Below, piece by piece: positions 2,319-53,603 of a stretch of DNA of 64,000 nt (positions are counted from its first letter, which is position 1; each line of letters opens with the position of its first letter). The position numbers and the translations under genes were made by a program. The notes beneath the pieces were generated by a model. The model was not told the DNA's origin and ran no database searches. It saw only the letters and a list, made by a program, of their open reading frames with translations. The stretch comes from an uncultured Candidatus Saccharibacteria bacterium (GTDB lineage Bacteria > Patescibacteriota > Minisyncoccia > Phycocordibacterales > PALSA-1337): contig CAYQFS010000001.1 of the NCBI GenBank assembly GCA_964416985.1, positions 153,365-217,364 of the forward strand, read 5' to 3'.

Positions 2319-2380
2319 GGGTCAATTATACTGGAATATCGAATAACGCAAGGGTTTTTGAGGGGAAATCTATCACAAAA

Positions 2381-2398
2381 ACTTTATCAAAACTTTAT
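2381..2398 (+). promoter_or_regulatory. Direct repeat ACTTTAT-N4-ACTTTAT (putative OmpR-family box), copy A, in the divergent RR/DedA-PAP2 intergenic region
   Basis: Two ACTTTAT heptamers at 11-bp periodicity inside a ~55-nt element that recurs at 6721-6770 and 25925-25985. Confidence 0.45.
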
Positions 2399-34357: not shown

Positions 34358-34442
34358 TCGGTAATCTCCGGTTAATTGTTTAATTTAAAATATCACCCAT
34401 AGCTACCCTTGTCAATGTCTATTAAATATAGTATGATTTCCT

Positions 34443-34732
34443 CACGTGACAGACAACCGCTGCTTGCCGCAAGGTGGGTAGAGGAAAGTCCGAACACCGG
34501 CCGCCGCAAGGCGTGCAGAAAGGTAGCGGGTAACGCCCGTCCATCGCGAGATGCGAGGTGCGAACAGTGACGAATCCCTTAAGTGGGAGTGAAACGGCAA
34601 AATCCTTACCCCGGTGCAAGGCCGTGCTCGCGTAAGCGAGAGTGCCGCTTGAGGCCCACCGCAAGGCGGGTCCCAGATAAATGGTTGTCGTCCGTCTTTT
34701 GGCGGATACAGAATTCGGCTTATCGTTACGTA
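34443..34732 (+). ncRNA. rnpB: RNase P RNA (bacterial type, reduced ~290 nt)
   Basis: P4 strands 'GAGGAAAGTCCGAAC' and 'ACAGAATTCGGCTTATCG'. 'GTGAAACGGC' J11/12-like segment. P1 pairing CGTGAC/GTTACG. GC-rich. Confidence 0.85.
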
Positions 34733-34740
34733 CATCAAAA

Positions 34741-34765
34741 AGCTTCCCTTAACGGGAGGCTTTTT
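34741..34765 (+). terminator. rho-independent terminator of rnpB
   Basis: AGCTTCCC-ttaac-GGGAGGCT followed by TTTTT. Confidence 0.7.
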
Positions 34766-34811
34766 GCTATAATTACTCTCACTAGCAATAACAAAAATAA
34801 TACAAAATACT

Positions 34812-37309: not shown

Positions 37310-38989
37310 ATGGTAAAAAGGTTCTTCAGCCTCTTCGGGAAGGAAATTACAGGGATTCATGAGGCGGCGTATCTTCTGGCCTTTTTTGCCTTTGCTTCGC
37401 AACTTCTTGCTCTTGTCCGCGACAAGCTCCTTGCATTTAGTTTTGGTGCGGGACCTCTTCTCGATATCTACTACGCGGCCTTTCGAATCCCAGATCTCAT
37501 CTTTGTCTCGATAGCATCAGTAGTTTCGGCTTCGGTTCTTATTCCTTTTTTCATCGACCGGACTCAAAATGATGCAGATAAAGGAAGGGAATTCATCGAT
37601 AATGTTTTCTCGGCATTCTTTATTGCAGTTGTTTTAACGAGTATTGTTGTTGGAATCTTTGCTCCGCAACTTGTGGCCTTTCTTCTCCCCGGGTTTGCTC
37701 ATGGCACATCTCTCCCGCTCATCATTACTGCAACAAGAATTCTTCTTCTTTCTCCTGTTCTCCTCGGTATTTCCAATTTCTTTTCTAGCATTACCCAGAT
37801 GCACAGAAGATTTTTAGTCTACGCCTTGAGCCCTCTCGTTTACAACGTTGGTATTATCATCGGCATTGTTTGTCTCTACCCAGTTTTTGGAATGGTTGGT
37901 CTCATCTGGGGAGTTGTCATTGGAGCTTTTCTTCATATGGCAATTCAGATCCCGTTCATCATAAACACTGGCTTCTTTCCTCGCTTTCGTTTTGCTATCG
38001 ATTTTTCTGCCATCAAAAAAGTTGTTTTCATTTCTCTCCCACGGACCCTTACTCTCTCGTCAAACCAGCTCGCTTCTTTTTTCCTCGTTGCTCTTGCGTC
38101 TCTCATGAGTGGGGGATCGATCTCTATTTTTAACCTCGCATTCAACCTTCAGTCGGTACCTCTCTCAATTGTTGGTGTGAGCTATTCCTCAGCAATTTTT
38201 CCTACACTCTCAAAATTCTTTGTAAATGGGGAACGGGCCGGTTTTCTCCAGAAAATGATCGAATCAGCACGGCATATTATTTTCTGGTCGATCCCAATTA
38301 CTGTCCTTTTTGTCGTCCTTCGCGCACAGATTGTTCGTACAATTTATGGGGCAGGGCAATTTGACTGGGCTGATACTCGTCTTACAGCTGCAACTCTTGC
38401 CATCTTTATTCTTTCTGTTGTTGGTCAGAGCCTCATTCTTCTTTTTGTTCGTGCATATTATGCCGAAGGAAAGACCTCAAAACCTCTCATTGTGAATATT
38501 GTCTCAGCTGTCGTCATTGCCACTCTTGGTTACATCCTTACAAAAGCTTTCTATGCTTTTCCGATATTTGCTTACTTCATTGAAGAAATTTTCAAAGTTT
38601 CAGGTCAAGGGGGCACGAGCGTCCTCGTCCTTGCTCTCGCATATTCTCTCGGTGTCTTTTTGAACACCTATCTCCACTGGTATATGTTTGAGAGGGATTA
38701 TCCTGGTTTCACTCGCCCAGTCCTCATCACCCTTTTCCAGAGTTTTGCTTCCTCCGTCATCATGGGCTATGTGACGTTCGTCTCTCTTCGTTTCTTTGAT
38801 CTTTTCTTTTCTCTTGAAAAAGCTTGGGGTGTTTTTTTCCAGGGATTCTGTGCTGGAATCGTAGGAATTATTTCGGGAATTATCGTTCTCGTTCTGCTTA
38901 AAAATAATGAAATAAAGGAGGTGTGGAATACGCTCCACCATAAGTTCTGGAAGTCAAAGGTAGTGGTGCCAGATCAGGAGACGTTGTGA
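37310..38989 (+). CDS. murJ: lipid II flippase MurJ
   Basis: 'LALVRDKLLAFSFGAGPLLDIYYAAFRIPD' MurJ/MviN N-terminus. 14 TM helices. Confidence 0.9.
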   Translation: MVKRFFSLFGKEITGIHEAAYLLAFFAFASQLLALVRDKLLAFSFGAGPLLDIYYAAFRIPDLIFVSIASVVSASVLIPFFIDRTQNDADKGREFIDNVFSAFFIAVVLTSIVVGIFAPQLVAFLLPGFAHGTSLPLIITATRILLLSPVLLGISNFFSSITQMHRRFLVYALSPLVYNVGIIIGIVCLYPVFGMVGLIWGVVIGAFLHMAIQIPFIINTGFFPRFRFAIDFSAIKKVVFISLPRTLTLSSNQLASFFLVALASLMSGGSISIFNLAFNLQSVPLSIVGVSYSSAIFPTLSKFFVNGERAGFLQKMIESARHIIFWSIPITVLFVVLRAQIVRTIYGAGQFDWADTRLTAATLAIFILSVVGQSLILLFVRAYYAEGKTSKPLIVNIVSAVVIATLGYILTKAFYAFPIFAYFIEEIFKVSGQGGTSVLVLALAYSLGVFLNTYLHWYMFERDYPGFTRPVLITLFQSFASSVIMGYVTFVSLRFFDLFFSLEKAWGVFFQGFCAGIVGIISGIIVLVLLKNNEIKEVWNTLHHKFWKSKVVVPDQETL

Positions 38990-38993
38990 TTTA

Positions 38994-39031
38994 GAGGGAA
39001 GATGGTGATGCGATAGAATATTAAATTTAGG
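38994..39031. repeat. short intergenic repeat, copy M1 (core GAAGATGGTG...TTTAGG)
   Basis: 'gagggaagatggtgatgcgatagaatattaaatttagg', starting 5 nt after the murJ stop. Confidence 0.6.
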
Positions 39032-39040
39032 AAAAAAGTG

Positions 39041-39076
39041 CCTCCCGTTTTTTTTCGAGAGGCACACGTAAACTCA
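39041..39076 (-). terminator. rho-independent terminator for the minus-strand small ORF
   Basis: GTGCCTCTCG-a8-CGGGAGGCAC followed by a T-run on the minus strand. Confidence 0.7.
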
Positions 39077-39082
39077 ACACTC

Positions 39083-39271
39083 TTAGGATTTCGTAACCAG
39101 AATTCTCAGAAAAGCCCTCGTGGTCTTTGCCTGCTTCGGCGTTAGCTGTATTTTACTCTTAGGATCGAAGTGACGCCTAGCATTTCGGACCACAGCGGCT
39201 CCGACAAAATCATGATCACGAAAAAGTTTTCTTCTGTATTTTTGGCAAACATCGTGAATTGTAACTTTCAT
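39083..39271 (-). CDS. small basic hypothetical protein (62 aa)
   Basis: Own TTGACA/TATTGT promoter, AGGAGA RBS and strong terminator. Confidence 0.5.
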   Translation of the reverse strand: MKVTIHDVCQKYRRKLFRDHDFVGAAVVRNARRHFDPKSKIQLTPKQAKTTRAFLRILVTKS

Positions 39272-39332
39272 ATTGTTCTCCTATAGGATCAGTTTAAGTC
39301 ACAATAACACGGTTAAAATGTGTTTGTCAATT

Positions 39333-39368
39333 TGAGAAGATGGTAGTGTCATAGAGTTTAAGATTTAG
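39333..39368. repeat. short intergenic repeat, copy M2
   Basis: 'gagaagatggtagtgtcatagagtttaagatttagg', between divergent promoters. Confidence 0.6.
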
Positions 39369-39423
39369 GTTAGCCTTGACAATTGACTATTATGTGATAC
39401 AATATAGTAAGAAAGGCTAAATT

Positions 39424-39672
39424 ATGAAAATGAACATTAAACTTCCGGGAAAAATTAAGGTGGCTAGCCATATTATTGATCGGCCACCTCAACCGCTCAT
39501 TGTCTCGAGCAACAATGGTAACCAATCCATTGTAATCCAGACTTTTTGCTGGAAACAGAGCAATGCAGAATGGTTGATGATCATCACTGGAGTTATGACG
39601 GACACACAGAAGCCGTTTTCCGGTGAAATCAAGAATTCTGACGGAACCGGAACGATCGAAGTAACCGAATAA
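39424..39672 (+). CDS. hypothetical protein (82 aa)
   Basis: TTGACA-17-TACAAT promoter, RBS AAGG, and a terminator hairpin CCCACC..GGTGGGTTTT directly downstream. Confidence 0.5.
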   Translation: MKMNIKLPGKIKVASHIIDRPPQPLIVSSNNGNQSIVIQTFCWKQSNAEWLMIITGVMTDTQKPFSGEIKNSDGTGTIEVTE

Positions 39673-39724
39673 CCCACCATCTCAAACACGGAAGATCCAT
39701 GTGCGAGAGGTGGGTTTTCTGTTA

Positions 39725-39761
39725 ATGGAAGATGGTGGTGTCGTGGAGTTTAAGGGCAGAG
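39725..39761. repeat. short intergenic repeat, copy M3
   Basis: 'atggaagatggtggtgtcgtggagtttaagggcagag', immediately followed by TTGACA. Confidence 0.6.
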
Positions 39762-39813
39762 TTGACAAATTAAGATAAAGCAATTATAGTTTGAAAAAAA
39801 GAAAGGTCTTTGC

Positions 39814-40365
39814 ATGAAAATAATAATTCGACGGATGCCCCCAACCAAGGTGTCTGGTATTGAGTTGTCCAGATATGTTGCTTGGAATGAATCAGATTCT
39901 GAACAGCAGTTTTTTGGAGTAAGTGAAGCAAGTGCGGTTGGTGAGCTGGTCATGAGTGTGGCATCTAGTCTGGGATTAGAGATAGTTAAACTACCCCAGA
40001 TTGAAAAAGCTTCTGTGGAAAGGATGGTAGGGGATGTCGTCACGGGATTAAATTTACCACTTCCGCCATTTGACTGGAAAAAAGAAAAGAATAAGTCCGA
40101 ACGTTGTGAATTTACGCCAGAAGCATGGGAACAGATCCTGAGATTGGATTGGTCACGTCGCATGCGCGATATACTACTATCGATCAAAGGGAAAGAACTC
40201 GGAAAATTACAAGCTTCAGACGTTGAAGGTTTCAGTCCAACAACCTCAGCGGATTTCAATAGAAAATGCTATGAGTCTTTGTTGCCTTGGAGGATTTACT
40301 TGTTTAAGAAGTCTGGGCAACAATATTGGGGTAAGGGTTATATTCTAACCTACTGTAGCACGTAA
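39814..40365 (+). CDS. hypothetical protein (183 aa)
   Basis: Promoter TTGACA..TATAGT. Terminator-like 'gcgagatggtgggtttctttttt' downstream. Confidence 0.5.
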   Translation: MKIIIRRMPPTKVSGIELSRYVAWNESDSEQQFFGVSEASAVGELVMSVASSLGLEIVKLPQIEKASVERMVGDVVTGLNLPLPPFDWKKEKNKSERCEFTPEAWEQILRLDWSRRMRDILLSIKGKELGKLQASDVEGFSPTTSADFNRKCYESLLPWRIYLFKKSGQQYWGKGYILTYCST

Positions 40366-40570
40366 CCTAAAGCTCATTATCTCAACATTGAAACCTACTG
40401 TCGCGAGATGGTGGGTTTCTTTTTTATATTGCATTAAGGATATGGGACCAAGTAAAAATTAACGAAAAATTCGTTAATTTTTACTAAGTGATGATAGACA
40501 CATTATCCTAGCTCTTTCCTTTATAAAAAAGCAGCAACCTTGCGGGTGCTGCTTGTGAAAGCGATTCTGC

Positions 40571-41035
40571 TTAAGCGAAGTGATGGCTCGGCATTGCTTC
40601 GGAATTAAATATCATAGGAACACGCCCGGGTTCTTTGAGTGTGAACCTTTCCCATCCAAAAGAGAATTGTGAGGTTCCACCCAATTCTTCCGTAATGATG
40701 CGCATCGCATCTTGGGGGACCAGCATCAGGAGATTTTCTTTTCCTACTTTTACAAACACAAAGATTGTACGTGCAAAGTTCTCAAAACTTTTGTGTTTAG
40801 CGTTTGCTGCTTCAAATTTCCCTCGCACTTGCTTACACGCTGCTGATAGGGATTTATTCTCCTTGCTTTTCACAGCGATTTGTCCCGGCCAACCTGAAGG
40901 AATATGGACTACGTAGAGCAGATCACCCTTTGATTTTTTGAGGTGGCGCTGGACCTGTAGAAACAGACGGATCTGTTCATTGTAAAAGGATAAGCATTTT
41001 TCAATAGCTTCTTGAGTTCGTTCGGTTTTTTTCAT
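40571..41035 (-). CDS. hypothetical protein
   Basis: The ORF opens at 41122; the probable start is MKKTERTQ. No recognisable motif. Confidence 0.45.
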   Translation of the reverse strand: MKKTERTQEAIEKCLSFYNEQIRLFLQVQRHLKKSKGDLLYVVHIPSGWPGQIAVKSKENKSLSAACKQVRGKFEAANAKHKSFENFARTIFVFVKVGKENLLMLVPQDAMRIITEELGGTSQFSFGWERFTLKEPGRVPMIFNSEAMPSHHFA

Positions 41036-41122
41036 ACTATAACTTTCTGGAGAGAAAGTATCATAATAATTATCCTCAGTCAATTTAAGTATTATTGCAC
41101 AAAATGATATAATTACATTCAT

Positions 41123-41965
41123 ATGCCACGAGCGAAGGTAAGAATAAGTAAAGAAAGATTGAGATTACTCTACCATCGAAAAAACTTGACTCCGGTAAAA
41201 ATCGGAAGGATTTTTGGTTGCCACGCCATTACTATTCGAAATCGTCTGAAAGAATATAAAATTCCTTTCAAAGATCCTGCTTTTGCCCGAATTAGATCAA
41301 AGCGCAAAGACTTTAATAACATTCTTACAAACAAAGCCTATATGATCGGATTTCGTATTGGTGATCTAAATGTATATCGTCCAAGTGAAAAATCTCAGAC
41401 AATAGTGGTTCGCTGTCATACAACTCAAATAGAGCAAATAGATATAATTAAATTTCTATTTAAGGGTTTTGGTAAAATAACAACGTCTTTTAATAATGGA
41501 CATTACCACATAAATTGTTTTCTAAATGAGACGTTTGGCTTTCTTCTTTCGAAAAGTAACGAGGCTTGGAGCTGGCTTAAGAATAGTGATGAATTGGTAC
41601 CCTATTTTATTGCGGGTTATGTTGACGCTGAAGCGAATTTTATTTTAAATCAAGGAAGAGCGCGATTCAAAATTGATTCTTATGACGTAGATATACTTAC
41701 TTTTATTTCAGAGTGGCTTGTGTCAAAGGGAATCTCCACTCGTTTCAGAAGAATTTATAAGAAAGGTGATATTTGGAAGGGTAATTTCCCTCTCAATAAG
41801 GATTTGTGGAGGTTGAATATAAATGATATGGTATCATTACTCAAATTCATTAATCTCATATTGCCCTGGATTCGACATAAAAAAAGAAGGGCTGATATGA
41901 TAATTTGCCTCAAAAATATTAAAAATAGGCAGGATAAGAAAAAATATGGATCCCAAAAAAATTAG
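41123..41965 (+). CDS. LAGLIDADG-family homing endonuclease (two motifs) with N-terminal HTH
   Basis: Motifs 'AYMIGFRIGDLNVY' and 'YFIAGYVDAEANFIL'. N-terminal 'LTPVKIGRIFGCHAITIRNRLKEY' HTH. Confidence 0.75.
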   Translation: MPRAKVRISKERLRLLYHRKNLTPVKIGRIFGCHAITIRNRLKEYKIPFKDPAFARIRSKRKDFNNILTNKAYMIGFRIGDLNVYRPSEKSQTIVVRCHTTQIEQIDIIKFLFKGFGKITTSFNNGHYHINCFLNETFGFLLSKSNEAWSWLKNSDELVPYFIAGYVDAEANFILNQGRARFKIDSYDVDILTFISEWLVSKGISTRFRRIYKKGDIWKGNFPLNKDLWRLNINDMVSLLKFINLILPWIRHKKRRADMIICLKNIKNRQDKKKYGSQKN

Positions 41966-43760
41966 AAATTTTTCAATAATGGCCCATGTAGACCACGGGA
42001 AATCGACTCTTGCCGATCGCATGCTTGAATTTACCAATACCATTGAAAAGAGAAAAATGCAGGAGCAGGTTCTCGATAGTATGGAGCTTGAACGTGAGCG
42101 AGGTATTACTATAAAGATGCAGCCAGTGAGAATGAAGTGGGCAAAGAAAACGGGAGAAAATACTGGAAGGGAATACATCCTAAACCTCATCGACACCCCT
42201 GGTCATATCGACTTTTCGTACGAGGTTTCTCGTGCTCTAAAGGCTGTTGAAGGATCAATCCTTCTGGTGGATGCCACGCAGGGAGTTCAGGCTCAAACCC
42301 TCACAACACTCAACATGGCTCGTGAGTCAGGTCTTACTATTATTCCTGTTGTTTCGAAGATTGATTCTCCTCTTGCTCGCGCAAGCGAAGTGGTCCATGA
42401 AGTCTGCGAACTTCTCGGTTGTAATGAATCAGATGTTCTCAGGGTCTCAGGAAAAACAGGGGAAGGAGTTTCAGATCTTCTCGATAAGATAATCGAAAGA
42501 GTCCCCCCACCGGATGTTCCAAACGATACAAAAGAATTTCGTTCCCTCGTCTTTGATTTCCAGTATTCAAACCACAAAGGCGTGATCGTCTATGTTCGTG
42601 TCATGAGTGGAAGTGTTAAGCGGCATGATCAGCTTCTTTTTAAAATTTCAGATGAAAAATTCCAGTCTCTCGAAGTAGGAATTTTCGCTCCTGATGACAC
42701 ACCCACAGAAACTCTCGGAGCGGGGGAAATTGGCTACATTGTGACAGGAATAAAGCAGCCGGGAATTGCATCAGTTGGAGATACAGTTGCTTCAACTCGA
42801 GATGCACTCGCACCACTTCCGGGATATATGACCCCTCGACCAGTTGTTTGGGCTTCGATTTATCCTGAAAGCCAGGATGATTTTACAGCTCTTCGCCAGG
42901 CTCTGGGAAAACTTCGACTCTCTGATTCTTCATTTACCCACGATGAGGAATCCTCTGGAACGCTTGGAAGAGGATTCCGCTGCGGATTCTTGGGAATGCT
43001 TCATCTGGAAATCATCACCGAGCGCCTCCGACGCGAATTTAGTCTGAATCTTGTTGTTACAATTCCAAGCATCACGTATCATGTCGAGCTCAAACACGGT
43101 AAGACTGTCGTTGTATATTCACCAGCACTTTTTCCTGAAGATCATGAAGTCGTCCGTGTTCTTGAACCTCTCGTCAACATGAAAATCATCACCCCACCGC
43201 AGTATCTCGGGGTAATTATGCAGTCGGTTTTTGATCATGAGGGAATTGTCTCTGCCACGGAAAACTTTGGAGAAAATAGGACATCGCTCTCACTTGTTAT
43301 GCCACTCCGAGAACTGATGAGAAACTTTTTTGATGAAATGAAAAGCATTTCTTCTGGTTTCGCATCCATTTCATATGAAATTGGGGAGCTTCAGGAGGCA
43401 GATGTTGCTCGCATGGATATTCTCGTCGCCGATGAGCCTGTCGCTGCCTTTTGCCGAGTCGTCTCTCGTCGCCGTCTCGAAGAAGAAGCAAAAGCAACCG
43501 TCGAAAAGCTCCACAAAATTCTTCCCCGCCAGATGTTTACCGTAAAAATTCAAGCAAAAGCCCTTGGTCGAATCATTGCTTCTGAGACACTTGCTGGAAT
43601 GCAAAAAAACGTCACACAGCACATGTATGGAGGAGACCGTACTCGAAAAATGAAACTATGGGAAAAACAGAAAGAAGGAAAGAAGAAAATGAAGGAATTG
43701 GGACGTGGGAATGTCAATATTCCTCAAGAAGTCTTTGTTAAAATGATGCGGGCGGACTAG
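41946..43760 (+). CDS. lepA: translation elongation factor 4 (LepA)
   Basis: 'NFSIMAHVDHGKSTLADR' G1, 'DTPGHIDF' G3, LepA C-terminal domain. Confidence 0.95.
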   Translation: MDPKKIRNFSIMAHVDHGKSTLADRMLEFTNTIEKRKMQEQVLDSMELERERGITIKMQPVRMKWAKKTGENTGREYILNLIDTPGHIDFSYEVSRALKAVEGSILLVDATQGVQAQTLTTLNMARESGLTIIPVVSKIDSPLARASEVVHEVCELLGCNESDVLRVSGKTGEGVSDLLDKIIERVPPPDVPNDTKEFRSLVFDFQYSNHKGVIVYVRVMSGSVKRHDQLLFKISDEKFQSLEVGIFAPDDTPTETLGAGEIGYIVTGIKQPGIASVGDTVASTRDALAPLPGYMTPRPVVWASIYPESQDDFTALRQALGKLRLSDSSFTHDEESSGTLGRGFRCGFLGMLHLEIITERLRREFSLNLVVTIPSITYHVELKHGKTVVVYSPALFPEDHEVVRVLEPLVNMKIITPPQYLGVIMQSVFDHEGIVSATENFGENRTSLSLVMPLRELMRNFFDEMKSISSGFASISYEIGELQEADVARMDILVADEPVAAFCRVVSRRRLEEEAKATVEKLHKILPRQMFTVKIQAKALGRIIASETLAGMQKNVTQHMYGGDRTRKMKLWEKQKEGKKKMKELGRGNVNIPQEVFVKMMRAD

Positions 43761-46929: not shown

Positions 46930-47146
46930 GGGGTAAATTATACCGCAAGAAGCTTATTGAAGCAGGGATTGACAAAAAGGCTGAGTTGTGATAGGGTGAC
47001 GGGCAGTCGGCGTTCTTTGACGTTTAAGGAAGATGGGGTGAAAACCTCATAGATTCGGGCTGTTCCCGGATTTGTCTGTATGAATTCCTATGCTCGAAGA
47101 GCGCTATCCTTGCGCAACAGAAAACCAAACAACTCCGAATTAAATC

Positions 47147-53129: not shown

Positions 53130-53603
53130 TTAAAGGATGATGTCCGATCCATCCATCTCGGTACGCACCGCAGCATTTTGGATAGCGACGGCATCGTCGA
53201 GCGTAATGTCACCGATCACTTCGCCACAACCACTGCAACAGAGGTTGAACAATGTGACCTGAATCCCGAACTTTTCCCGCAGATGATGTTCGAGTTGCAA
53301 TCGTGCAGCAACGTCCCCGACGACGTCATGGACTTTTTCTGCCAGACCATCATTGTCGTCCGCATGCTCGACATAATAATTCCGATTCACACCGGCCTTT
53401 CGAGTGACAGTCTCATGGAAAGGATTCGTTACCTTGTCACGGAAATTAGCCGTGAGTTGCTCCAGGCGTTCCAAAACACCTGGAAATGTTTCATTAAGGC
53501 CAGCAATAAATCCTTGCGGGTGGCCCCAAACTTTCTTTGCACTGCTACAATTCATAACAATTTCTCCGTTTATTTTTTGGTGAACTAATGCCAAACCGTA
53601 CAA
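53130..53603 (-). CDS. hypothetical protein (CCSGCG motif), co-oriented with ParA/MinD-like ATPase
   Basis: 157-aa ORF. An overlapping plus-strand ORF is judged spurious. Confidence 0.4.
   Translation of the reverse strand: MYGLALVHQKINGEIVMNCSSAKKVWGHPQGFIAGLNETFPGVLERLEQLTANFRDKVTNPFHETVTRKAGVNRNYYVEHADDNDGLAEKVHDVVGDVAARLQLEHHLREKFGIQVTLFNLCCSGCGEVIGDITLDDAVAIQNAAVRTEMDGSDIIL

What the first reader, a model, noticed from the sequence alone, without database searches (positions are those of the whole stretch)
38990..41122. Cassette of four small orphan genes punctuated by a recurring GAAGATGGTG...GAGTTTAAGRTTTAGG repeat and look-alike terminators: candidate uncharacterised module
Between murJ and a homing-endonuclease gene lie four ORFs (62, 82, 183 and ~155 aa) with no recognisable domains. 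Each has its own sigma70-like promoter, and three have strong intrinsic terminators.

Three copies of a ~36-nt repeat (38994, 39333, 39725) sit immediately upstream of the promoters and downstream of the preceding terminators. A short fourth variant 'gtttaagGAAGATGGGGTG' occurs at 47026, upstream of a GC-rich secreted protein.

Two downstream hairpins share 'GCGAGAKGGTGGGTTT', and their complement 'CCCACCATCTC' is also the reverse complement of the repeat core. So the repeats and terminators may belong to one palindromic element family, possibly MITE-like, or may mark a shared regulator or RNA-level control.

The modular promoter-repeat-small gene-terminator organisation, the composition shift and the neighbouring homing endonuclease suggest a mobile or defence-like islet of unknown function.
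Basis: seen in the sequence. Interest (0 to 1): 0.6.

Follow-up and report, generated by a model that had tools for sequence, protein, structure and literature searches.

The report
Recombination-site repeats bounding tiny gene cassettes
The recurring ~35-base repeat copies the last nine codons of the conserved gene ychF, which a family of phage-type recombinases in these tiny bacteria uses as a docking site, so the "orphan gene module" is a stack of small mobile gene cassettes inserted one after another, here at an unusual chromosomal place.

Summary
The repeat is real: three direct copies at 38998, 39336 and 39728. The proposed fourth copy at 47026 is chance.

It is not a MITE and probably not a regulator site. 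In frame it reads EDG(D/S/G)xIEFKI*, the C-terminus and stop codon of YchF.

A degenerate pattern of the repeat hit 21 metagenome contigs, where fewer than one was expected:
- In six distinct loci the first copy is the true ychF 3' end, and in five of them 1-3 further direct copies follow, spaced 141-571 nt, each bounding a tiny cassette.
- In ten others the repeat lies about 350 nt downstream of a conserved Xer-like tyrosine recombinase. A prophage, other mobile DNA or more mini-cassettes follow it.
- In one sample, two contigs differ by the exact presence or absence of two cassettes, with the junction inside GAGTTTAA.

The islet is therefore an att-bounded cassette array (att1, orf62, att2, orf82, att3, orf183a). 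It sits in a murJ-lepA spacer that is 13-103 nt long in 29 of 48 relatives. The window contains neither ychF nor the recombinase.

The "look-alike terminators" belong to a conserved roughly 86-nt hairpin-plus-att unit also found in two other arrays.

Cassette gene functions remain unknown, and I found no evidence for defence. This is a new variant of known site-specific accretion and integron-like systems.

The parts
37310..38989 (+). murJ (lipid II flippase), the conserved left flank of the islet
   Evidence: Pfam MurJ, E = 1.3e-67. Orthologues in 55 loci.
38998..39037 (+). att copy 1. Reads EDGDAIEY*. The left arm and the right flank (ATTTAGGAAAAA) resemble native ychF ends, but the central GAGTTTAAG is mutated to GAATATTAA.
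   Evidence: Profile E = 2e-6. Frame translation.
39038..39065 (-). Intrinsic terminator of orf62: 10-bp stem followed by TTTTTT
39083..39271 (-). orf62, the gene of cassette A (cassette spans 38998 to 39336, 338 nt). Small basic protein.
   Evidence: 39% identical over 64 aa to a 77-aa ORF at the same position and strand in the first cassette of the ychF array in L069/L081 (E about 2e-9). GGAG ribosome-binding site 6 nt upstream.
39301..39330 (-). Promoter of orf62 (TTGACA-18-TATTGT), abutting att2. The same GTCAAGTTT context precedes att copies in L066, L069 and L072.
39336..39375 (+). att copy 2. Reads EDGSVIEFKI*. Near-consensus.
   Evidence: Profile E = 1.1e-10. 97% identical over 34-35 nt to copies in L064, L067, L070 and L084.
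39376..39403 (+). Promoter of orf82 (TTGACA-16-TACAAT with TG)
   Evidence: 11 of 12 matches.
39424..39672 (+). orf82, the gene of cassette B (cassette spans 39336 to 39728, 392 nt). Orphan with host-like codon usage.
   Evidence: Only self-hits among 5.8e9 protein clusters. Codon score 0.22, against a true-gene mean of 0.33.
39668..39727 (+). Conserved hairpin module (AACCCACC.ATCTC / GAGA.GGTGGGTT, then TTTTCTGTT). It acts as the cassette 3' terminator and forms part of an approximately 86-nt hairpin-plus-att unit.
   Evidence: Fold energy -28.7 kcal/mol, z = -5.0. Window 39670-39754 is 88% identical to L069 1195-1279 and 82% to L078 1325-1411. The two variable stem positions keep pairing through G.U.
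39728..39761 (+). att copy 3. Reads EDGGVVEFKG.. with the stop codon lost. Left arm and centre are intact; the right flank has diverged.
   Evidence: Profile E = 1.1e-6.
39762..39790 (+). Promoter of orf183a (TTGACA-17-TATAGT)
   Evidence: 11 of 12 matches.
39814..40365 (+). orf183a, the gene of cassette C. Orphan with atypical codon usage.
   Evidence: Only self-hits. Codon score -0.03. AlphaFold pLDDT 35, not usable.
40373..40420 (+). Second copy of the hairpin module, including the terminator at 40390-40419. The att expected after it (about 40405-40448) is degenerate or lost.
   Evidence: Hairpin-plus-att profile positions 6-52, E = 9e-4. 74% identical over 74 nt to L078 1330-1400. 13-bp stem followed by TTTTTT.
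40451..40485 (.). Perfect AT-rich palindrome (16+3+16) between the convergent orf183a and orf183b. Role unknown.
   Evidence: I4. All Logan unitigs end here.
40571..41038 (-). orf183b, 155-aa form, with its own terminator at about 40528-40555. It may be a fourth cassette or unrelated cargo. No att copy is detectable to its right.
   Evidence: Weak full-length homologues P0004 (E = 1.4e-6) and P0005 (E = 3e-4). No att lies near those homologues. Terminator fold.
41088..41965 (+). Free-standing LAGLIDADG homing-endonuclease unit. A separate mobile element that forms the right boundary of the islet.
   Evidence: Pfam LAGLIDADG_3, E = 2e-4. A 74%-identical homologue occupies the same murJ-lepA position in L018. 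Shared upstream sequence begins at TATTATTGCACAAA.
41946..43760 (+). lepA, the conserved right flank
   Evidence: tblastn hits in 48 loci.

Best explanation
The three direct repeats are attachment (att) sites of a site-specific recombination system that is widespread in Patescibacteria.

**The site.** It mimics the last nine codons plus the stop codon of ychF (GAA GAT GGT GGT GYS ATA GAG TTT AAG ATT TAG, then GCAAAA). That is the chromosomal target of a 305-aa Xer-like tyrosine recombinase carried by temperate phages and integrative elements.

**The reaction.** DNA that carries one att copy recombines with a resident att. The crossover falls in the central GAGTTTAA. Each event leaves the inserted DNA bounded by direct att copies. 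Repeated events build head-to-tail arrays of mini-cassettes, 0.14-0.7 kb each, usually holding one small gene with its own promoter and terminator.

**In this window.** The array is att1, [orf62, minus strand], att2, [orf82, hairpin], att3, [orf183a, hairpin, decayed att]. orf183b may be a fourth unit. The array sits in the murJ-lepA spacer rather than at ychF.

**Shown:**
- the repeats and their identity to ychF 3' ends;
- arrays at ychF and beside the recombinase in other genomes;
- dyad-symmetric phage-type sites;
- one exact cassette presence/absence polymorphism;
- absence of the islet from relatives.

**Inferred:**
- that the recombinase catalyses the reaction;
- that cassettes move as circles;
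- how the array reached this ectopic site;
- that the copies here are still recombination-competent;
- what the cassette genes do (probably accessory, moron-like cargo).
For: 1. The repeat is non-random and local. The three copies score E 1e-6 to 2e-5 and nothing else in the window does.
2. The degenerate pattern GAAGATGGTRRTGYSRTRGARTWTAAR carries about 45 bits. It gave 21 exact hits in metagenome contigs, where I estimate fewer than one by chance.
3. In L064, L067, L069/L081, L070, L076 and L079 the first copy is the actual 3' end of a YchF gene (Pfam YchF-GTPase_C, E = 7.7e-32; protein ends ...KDGDVIEFKV*). In all of these except L076, 1-3 further direct copies reading EDG[GS]xIEFKI* follow at 141-571 nt.
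4. Every copy in every locus has the same orientation.
5. In ten contigs the site lies about 350 nt downstream of a tyrosine recombinase. It matches Pfam Phage_integrase at E = 8.5e-27, and its nearest NCBIfam models are XerA, XerD and XerC. It is 91-99% identical between contigs.
6. Downstream of that site lie a prophage with terminase and portal genes (L083), phage-like genes (L068), or further att-bounded mini-cassettes (L066, L078).
7. An IMG/VR viral contig (L088) carries a 75%-identical recombinase and a variant site.
8. Phage-type sites are dyads of 13 + 20 + 13 nt. In L088 both arms have changed together.
9. In sample ERZ724505, L078 reads recombinase-att1-cassette-att2-cassette-att3-flank, whereas L082 reads recombinase-att-flank. 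The L082 junction is the left part of att1 joined to the right part of att3, within GAGTTTAA.
10. orf62 has a homologue in the equivalent cassette of the L069 array. The hairpin-plus-att unit is 82-88% identical in L069 and L078.
11. murJ-lepA is a 13-103-nt spacer in 29 of 48 relatives, and none of the 55 related loci carries the four ORFs or the repeat.
Against: - The window contains no ychF and no homologue of the recombinase (tblastn, E <= 1). The array is therefore at a non-canonical site with no local enzyme.
- The right end of the array has no recognisable att.
- att1 has a mutated centre.
- Eight Logan contigs from seven runs are 100% identical to the window, so this population shows no sign of ongoing mobility.
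- The cassette-type copies lack the right inverted arm seen in the phage-type sites.
- The single presence/absence case could in principle be a deletion by short-homology recombination rather than by the recombinase.
- No experiment links the recombinase to this site.
Confidence: 0.72

Rival explanations
1. Decay scars. The repeats are att sites, but the 'cassettes' are not discrete mobile units. They are what remains after repeated integration of full-size prophages or elements, followed by deletion of nearly all of their DNA.
For: A complete prophage lies next to the same site in L083, and phage-like genes in L068. Tandem att remnants at tRNA and gene 3' ends are a known outcome of element decay (established knowledge on genomic islands). 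att1 and the fourth att in the window are degenerate.
Against: Seventeen measured inter-att intervals all fall between 141 and 677 nt. Most hold one intact small ORF with a promoter and terminator placed right at the att boundaries. Boundary modules recur across arrays whose ORFs are unrelated: the hairpin before att, and the GTCAAGTTT promoter before att. Two small cassettes are gained or lost exactly at att.
Confidence: 0.17
2. Shared cis-regulatory element. The repeat is an operator or UP-like site bound by a regulator that coordinates the small genes. It was duplicated locally together with the promoters.
For: Copies 2 and 3 lie 13 and 7 nt upstream of strong -35 boxes. Copy 2 lies between divergent promoters.
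Against: Copy 1 precedes no cassette-gene promoter. The distance to the -35 box differs by 6 nt, about half a helical turn. The sequence is the ychF coding end in frame. In other genomes it occurs at ychF stops and beside a recombinase, regardless of promoters.
Confidence: 0.05
3. MITE-like or palindromic mobile element family. Repeats and hairpins would be ends of small non-autonomous transposons.
For: A perfect 13-nt inverted pair (39671 and 40405) flanks orf183a. The hairpin arms resemble the reverse complement of the repeat core.
Against: No dispersed copies in 64 kb or in about 0.9 Mb of relatives. All att copies are direct. There are no target-site duplications. The inverted pair is explained by two copies of one conserved hairpin module.
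Confidence: 0.03
4. Chance similarity or assembly artefact.
For: The only support is that the join between orf183a and orf183b crosses a perfect palindrome where short-read unitigs break.
Against: Independent Logan assemblies reproduce murJ through att1-3 and orf183a on one contig, and orf183b, the endonuclease and lepA on another. The murJ...lepA order matches synteny in relatives. The pattern has 21 independent hits elsewhere.
Confidence: 0.02

Closest known systems
Accretion arrays of integrative elements and cis-mobilizable elements (CIMEs) at the 3' end of a gene, for example ICESt1/ICESt3 and CIMEs at fda in Streptococcus thermophilus (reviewed in PMC5704250)
   Same: Tyrosine-recombinase integration into the 3' end of a housekeeping gene. 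The att site restores the gene end. Tandem insertion gives several direct att copies bounding integrase-less units that can be excised in trans.
   Different: Units here are only 0.14-0.7 kb with a single small gene. The target is ychF and the hosts are Patescibacteria. The array in this window is not at the target gene at all.
Integrons (IntI, attI, attC gene cassettes)
   Same: A Xer-related tyrosine recombinase next to a primary site. Downstream lies a unidirectional array of very small, mostly orphan cassettes separated by recombination sites. Cassette content is polymorphic exactly at those sites (L078 versus L082).
   Different: The recombinase does not reach integron-integrase model cut-offs. 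The sites are sequence-conserved copies of a coding 3' end, not structure-conserved attC palindromes with a GTTRRRY core. Cassettes carry their own promoters and terminators and can face either way. The recombinase is co-oriented with the array and also occurs in phage genomes.
Prophages that use ychF as attB in Streptococcus pneumoniae (PMC6375853, PMC8637289)
   Same: ychF is the chromosomal attachment locus of temperate phages that carry tyrosine integrases.
   Different: An unrelated host phylum. I did not compare integrases or att sequences. No mini-cassette arrays are described there, as far as I read from the abstracts only.
IMEX elements and dif arrays (for example CTX/RS1/TLC at dif1 in Vibrio cholerae), and pdif modules in Acinetobacter plasmids. 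This comparison rests on my own knowledge.
   Same: A Xer-type recombinase. Tandem arrays in which each unit is bounded by a copy of the site. Small modules flanked by recombination sites.
   Different: The site is not a 28-31-bp dif. It derives from a gene's 3' end. Whether the recombinase is the host's chromosome-dimer resolvase is unknown.
Phage morons (promoter-gene-terminator units inserted between conserved genes). This comparison rests on my own knowledge.
   Same: Each cassette is an autonomous transcription unit inserted between conserved neighbours.
   Different: Morons are not bounded by recombination sites.

Membership tests
Site-specific integrative element / CIME-type accretion array | Direct repeats that duplicate the 3' end of the target gene | tested here: met
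   The repeats read EDG.xIEFKI* in frame. That matches the YchF C-terminus plus stop codon. The first copy in L064, L067, L069, L070, L076 and L079 is the real ychF end.
Site-specific integrative element / CIME-type accretion array | A cognate tyrosine recombinase encoded next to an att copy | tested here: inconclusive
   Met in ten metagenome contigs and one viral contig. Not met in this 64-kb window (tblastn found nothing at E <= 1). The rest of the genome was not available.
Site-specific integrative element / CIME-type accretion array | Exact gain or loss of the unit at att, with a hybrid junction | tested here: met
   L078 versus L082 from the same sample. The junction is the left part of att1 joined to the right part of att3, inside GAGTTTAA. 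Not observed for the window's own array.
Site-specific integrative element / CIME-type accretion array | Array located at the target gene | tested here: not met
   In the window the array follows murJ and no ychF is present in 64 kb. Elsewhere it follows ychF.
Integron | IntI-type integrase (integron-integrase models) | tested here: not met
   The metagenome recombinase scores 54.5 bits against a cut-off of 265 (TIGR02249) and 28.8 against 435 (PRK15417). Its best models are XerA, XerD and XerC, also below their cut-offs.
Integron | attC sites: imperfect palindromes (R''-L''...L'-R') with a GTTRRRY core, conserved in structure rather than sequence | tested here: not met
   Copies are conserved in sequence. 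The core GAGTTTAAG does not fit GTTRRRY. Cassette-type copies have no inverted partner arm (4-6 of 13 matches).
Integron | Mostly promoterless cassettes expressed from a common Pc promoter | tested here: not met
   Each cassette here has its own near-consensus promoter and terminator, and orf62 is on the opposite strand.
Integron | Recombinase adjacent to a unidirectional array of small cassettes separated by recombination sites | tested here: inconclusive
   Seen in L078 and L066. The window has the array but no recombinase.
IMEX / dif-Xer system | The site is the chromosomal dif (28-31-bp dyad near the terminus), used by the host XerC/D/S/H/A | tested here: inconclusive
   The recombinase is Xer-like but below every Xer model cut-off. 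Phage-type sites are dyads, but 46 nt long (13+20+13) and derived from ychF. Terminus location cannot be tested.
MITE | Terminal inverted repeats, target-site duplication and many dispersed copies | tested here: not met
   Copies are direct only and local only.
Anti-phage defence system | Proteins matching known defence families | tested here: not met
   No PADLOC hit for the four ORFs at E <= 1.

The most novel reading that the evidence does not exclude
Patescibacteria carry a previously undescribed integron-like gene-capture system. A Xer-like recombinase is shared between chromosomes and temperate phages. It uses a ychF-3'-end mimic as a double-stranded att site to stack promoter-bearing mini-cassettes of 0.14-0.7 kb. 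It stacks them at ychF, beside the recombinase gene and, as in this window, at ectopic sites. This would supply fast-evolving orphan accessory genes to these reduced genomes.
Probability: 0.35. Interest if true: 0.8.

Novelty: new variant of a known kind. Interest (0 to 1): 0.62.

Why it matters
Patescibacteria (CPR) have tiny genomes and few recognised mobile elements. How they acquire new genes is poorly understood.

A conserved recombinase and att system that piles up mini-cassettes of orphan genes would be a concrete, testable route for gene flux in this group. The link to prophages is of interest because temperate phages of this group are little documented, to my knowledge.

It also explains a class of 'orphan gene islets with odd repeats', and gives a simple sequence signature for finding them: a second, out-of-context copy of the ychF stop region.

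For annotation, it warns that the short EDGxxIEFKI* relics are recombination sites. They are not pseudogenes or regulatory motifs.

Tried and rejected
1. **Repeat derived from the ancestral murJ-lepA spacer or lepA promoter.** A profile of 24 relatives' spacers (conserved TTTCTGNTAGTAT) does not hit any repeat copy. It hits other promoters at 34759 and 2382. Rejected.
2. **Cassettes as diverged paralogues from tandem duplication.** blastn and tblastx between units find only the repeat and hairpin, with no similarity in the coding parts. Rejected.
3. **Fourth copy at 47026.** Chance.
4. **Known RNA family.** Rfam at gathering thresholds finds only RNase P RNA and tRNAs in the window, and nothing at the repeat or in the metagenome loci.
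5. **Function of the ORFs.**
   - Pfam, PHROGs, PADLOC, NCBIfam and PDB sequence searches were negative.
   - The 5.8-billion-cluster protein search returned only self-hits for orf82, orf183a and orf183b.
   - The exhaustive HMMER search for orf183b gave two weak homologues with no informative context.
   - AlphaFold single-sequence models had pLDDT 35-40, so I ran no fold search.
6. **Phage origin of the islet DNA.** The only hit in the phage collection was a 35-nt promoter-like match.
7. **Population polymorphism of the window's own array.** Eight Logan contigs are 100% identical to the window.
8. **Hairpin arms as recombinase half-sites.** The arms resemble the att left arm over only 9-13 nt (E = 11). 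They are arranged tail-to-tail, unlike the phage-type dyad. The two variable stem positions pair through G.U, which favours an RNA terminator. Left open.
9. **A degenerate att at the right end (about 41052-41085).** 15 of 27 matches by eye, not significant by profile.
Full report
**Coordinate convention.** For metagenome loci, coordinates follow the orientation in which the repeat is on the + strand. For L066, L067, L068, L073, L075, L078, L079, L080 and L083 this is the reverse complement of the stored locus.

The region 38990-41122 lies between murJ (37310-38989; Pfam MurJ, E = 1.3e-67) and a LAGLIDADG endonuclease gene (41123-41965) that overlaps lepA (41946-43760).

It holds four ORFs:
- orf62 (39083-39271, minus strand)
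- orf82 (39424-39672, plus strand)
- orf183a (39814-40365, plus strand)
- orf183b (40571-41122, minus strand; more likely 40571-41038, 155 aa)

Three direct copies of a 27-38-nt repeat start at 38998, 39336 and 39728. A profile of the three finds only these in 64 kb (E 1e-6 to 2e-5).

Near-consensus promoters lie at 39376 (+), 39762 (+) and 39330 (-). Hairpin terminators follow orf62, orf82, orf183a and orf183b.

The two + strand hairpins are homologous. They include the perfect 13-nt inverted pair at 39671 and 40405.

So the description is largely accurate, with three exceptions. The fourth copy is chance. The composition shift is slight. Copy 1 is not associated with a cassette-gene promoter.

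**2. Genomic context**

MurJ relatives place the window in Candidatus Taylorbacteria-like Patescibacteria, with best identities of 72-77%.

In 48 loci that hold both genes, murJ is followed by lepA:
- In 29 loci the spacer is 13-103 nt.
- In 19 loci it is 0.4-3.3 kb and holds unrelated ORFs, including a homologue of the endonuclease in L018.

None of the 55 related loci has any of the four ORFs or the repeat. The islet is therefore an insertion into a spacer that is itself an insertion hot spot.

Independent Logan assemblies from seven sequencing runs of one project reproduce the islet at 100% identity.

**3. What the repeat is**

The three copies share 18 invariant and 9 two-fold-degenerate positions. 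That pattern, GAAGATGGTRRTGYSRTRGARTWTAAR, carries about 45 bits. It gave 21 exact hits in the metagenome collection and none in the viral collection. My estimate of chance hits is well below one.

In every hit, conservation stops a few bases after ...GAGTTTAAGATTTAGG.

A profile from 22 distinct copies then found additional weaker copies in many of these loci, always in the same orientation.

In L064, L067, L069/L081, L070, L076 and L079 the first copy coincides with the end of a YchF gene. That gene matches Pfam MMR_HSR1 plus YchF-GTPase_C, and the protein ends ...EYIVKDGDVIEFKV*.

Read in that frame, the copies give:
- native ychF ends: K/E-D-G-D-V-I/M-E-F-K-I/V-stop
- downstream copies: E-D-G-G/S-V/A-I-E-F-K-I-stop
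- the window's copies: EDGDAIEY*, EDGSVIEFKI* and EDGGVVEFKG...

The repeat is thus a copy of the last nine codons and the stop codon of ychF.

**4. Link to a recombinase and to mobile DNA**

In L065, L066, L068, L071, L073, L074, L078, L080, L083 and L084 the site lies about 350 nt downstream of a 305-aa tyrosine recombinase. It matches Pfam Phage_integrase at E = 8.5e-27. Its closest NCBIfam models are XerA, XerD and XerC, all below their cut-offs, and it is far below the integron-integrase cut-offs. Its closest solved structures are XerA and XerH.

The recombinase is 91-99% identical between contigs. The two genes upstream of it are much less conserved: a PRTase-like gene at 44-64% and a TrpR-like gene at 68-82%.

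What follows the site differs between contigs:
- L083: a prophage with RecT-like, exonuclease, DnaC-like, methyltransferase, terminase and portal genes
- L068: phage-like replication and RusA-like genes
- L080: a large serine recombinase
- L065: an ordinary chromosomal gene
- L066 and L078: further att-bounded mini-cassettes

An IMG/VR viral contig (L088) carries a 75%-identical recombinase after lysis genes. It has a variant site, and the DNA downstream of that site is homologous to L083 (84% over 99 nt).

In the phage-linked sites the sequence is a dyad. A 13-nt arm, 20 central bases containing GAGTTTAA, and the inverted arm give 10-11 of 13 matches. In L088 both arms have changed together. 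That is the layout of a simple tyrosine-recombinase core site. The cassette-type and ychF-type copies keep only the left arm and the centre.

**5. Direct evidence of recombination at the site**

L078 and L082 come from one sample (ERZ724505).
- L078 reads recombinase-att1-cassette (337 nt)-att2-cassette (316 nt)-att3-flank.
- L082 reads recombinase-att-flank.
- L082 is 100% identical to L078 on the left through GAGTTTAA of att1, and on the right from AAAATAAAAACTCGC of att3.

Two cassettes are therefore gained or lost exactly between att copies, with the exchange inside the conserved centre.

**6. Anatomy of arrays and of the window's islet**

Seventeen inter-att intervals in nine loci measure 141-677 nt. 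Most hold one small ORF on either strand, such as a NUDIX protein, a zinc-ribbon-like peptide, membrane peptides and orphans.

Boundary modules recur:
- Minus-strand cassettes place a TTGACA promoter directly against the right-hand att, in the context GTCAAGTTT|GAAGATGG. This is seen in the window, L066, L069 and L072.
- Several plus-strand cassettes end in one conserved hairpin. Window 39670-39754 is 88% identical to L069 1195-1279 and 82% to L078 1325-1411. Window 40373-40420 is a second, more diverged copy whose att is no longer recognisable.

In that hairpin, the two variable stem positions keep pairing through G.U. This fits an RNA terminator, although only three sequences were available.

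orf62 is 39% identical to the 77-aa ORF in the equivalent first cassette of the L069 array. orf82 and orf183a have no homologue among 5.8 billion protein clusters. orf183b has two weak full-length homologues with uninformative context.

By codon usage, orf82 looks native. orf62, orf183a and orf183b look atypical, as does the endonuclease gene.

**7. Interpretation**

The islet is an array of att-bounded mini-cassettes built by serial site-specific insertion. The system's natural target is the ychF 3' end.

In this genome the array is ectopic. There is no ychF and no recombinase homologue in 64 kb. att1 starts 9 nt after the murJ stop. The right end abuts a separate homing-endonuclease unit, whose homology with L018 begins at about 41088.

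How the array reached this site is unknown. Integration of a multi-cassette circle at a pseudo-site is one possibility. The murJ end AAGGTAGTGGTGCC matches the att left arm at 11 of 14 positions, but I did not test this idea.

att1 has a native-like left arm and right flank but a mutated centre. att2 is near-consensus. att3 has lost its right flank.

The main rival is that the 'cassettes' are decay remnants of larger elements. The following argue for discrete units:
- the narrow size range;
- intact transcription units;
- recurrent boundary modules;
- the exact two-cassette polymorphism.

A wider survey is needed to settle this.

**8. Comparison with known systems and novelty**

Mechanistically this resembles three things:
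- accretion of integrative elements and CIMEs at a gene's 3' end (PMC5704250);
- use of ychF as a prophage attB in pneumococci (PMC6375853, PMC8637289);
- integrons, in its overall architecture.

It fails the integron membership tests on the integrase model, on attC structure and on promoterless cassettes.

Full-text searches found no description of ychF-mimic att arrays or integron-like cassettes in Patescibacteria. That library is incomplete, so this is not proof of novelty.

I rate it a new variant of a known kind. The cassette gene functions remain unknown.

Noticed in passing
window 41088-41965; L018 11720-12588: A free-standing LAGLIDADG homing-endonuclease gene sits directly upstream of lepA and overlaps it. 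A 74%-identical homologue, with shared upstream sequence (TATTATTGCACAAA), occupies the same murJ-lepA position in a different species. This suggests homing into this spacer.
   Followed up: partly
L002-L055, murJ-lepA spacers: The murJ-lepA spacer is an insertion hot spot. In 29 of 48 loci it is 13-103 nt. In 19 of 48 it carries 0.4-3.3 kb of unrelated small ORFs, among them a recurring coiled-coil family (..ITLESIAxSI..) in L024, L027, L029 and L047, and a 1082-aa ORF in L008.
   Followed up: partly
relatives' spacers; window 34759-34783 (+) and 2361-2382 (-): A conserved TTTCTGNTAGTAT (extended -10) lies only 10-12 nt before the lepA ATG in relatives, with similar sites in the window. This looks like a promoter type in this lineage that gives leaderless or very short-leader mRNAs.
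   Followed up: partly
window 40451-40485: A perfect AT-rich palindrome (16-nt arms, 3-nt loop) lies between the convergent orf183a and orf183b. Every short-read unitig from the Logan assemblies ends there.
   Followed up: partly
L065, L066, L068, L071, L073, L074, L078, L080, L083, L084: about 130 nt upstream of the att next to the recombinase: A conserved element of about 110 nt has predicted helices supported by compensatory changes (for example one pair is U-A in four sequences and C-G in four). It has its own promoter-like sequence and no Rfam match. This is a candidate new structured RNA associated with the recombinase and att.
   Followed up: partly
same loci, directly after the recombinase stop: A small, conserved, lysine-rich ORF (..ELGKKGGLKTKKKYGKKYFKKLGQKAAKVRWGK..) with a TATAAT promoter lies between the recombinase gene and the att. 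It could be an accessory or directionality factor.
   Followed up: no
L083 1196-1241, L068 3517-3562, L088 7306-7351: Phage-linked att sites are 46-nt dyads (13+20+13). In L088 both arms differ from the common type but still match each other, which would fit recombinase and site changing together.
   Followed up: partly
window 38957-38970: The murJ 3' end AAGGTAGTGGTGCC matches the att left arm AAGATGGTGGTGTC at 11 of 14 positions. It may be a pseudo-site that could explain the ectopic insertion.
   Followed up: no
window 53407-53490: ARAGORN calls an 84-nt tRNA-Asp with the anticodon at position 30. Rfam's tRNA model does not report it at the gathering threshold. It may be an unusual or interrupted tRNA, or a false call.
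   Followed up: no
window 34441-34738: The RNase P RNA is short (298 nt aligned across a 367-position model), which may be a reduced form.
   Followed up: no
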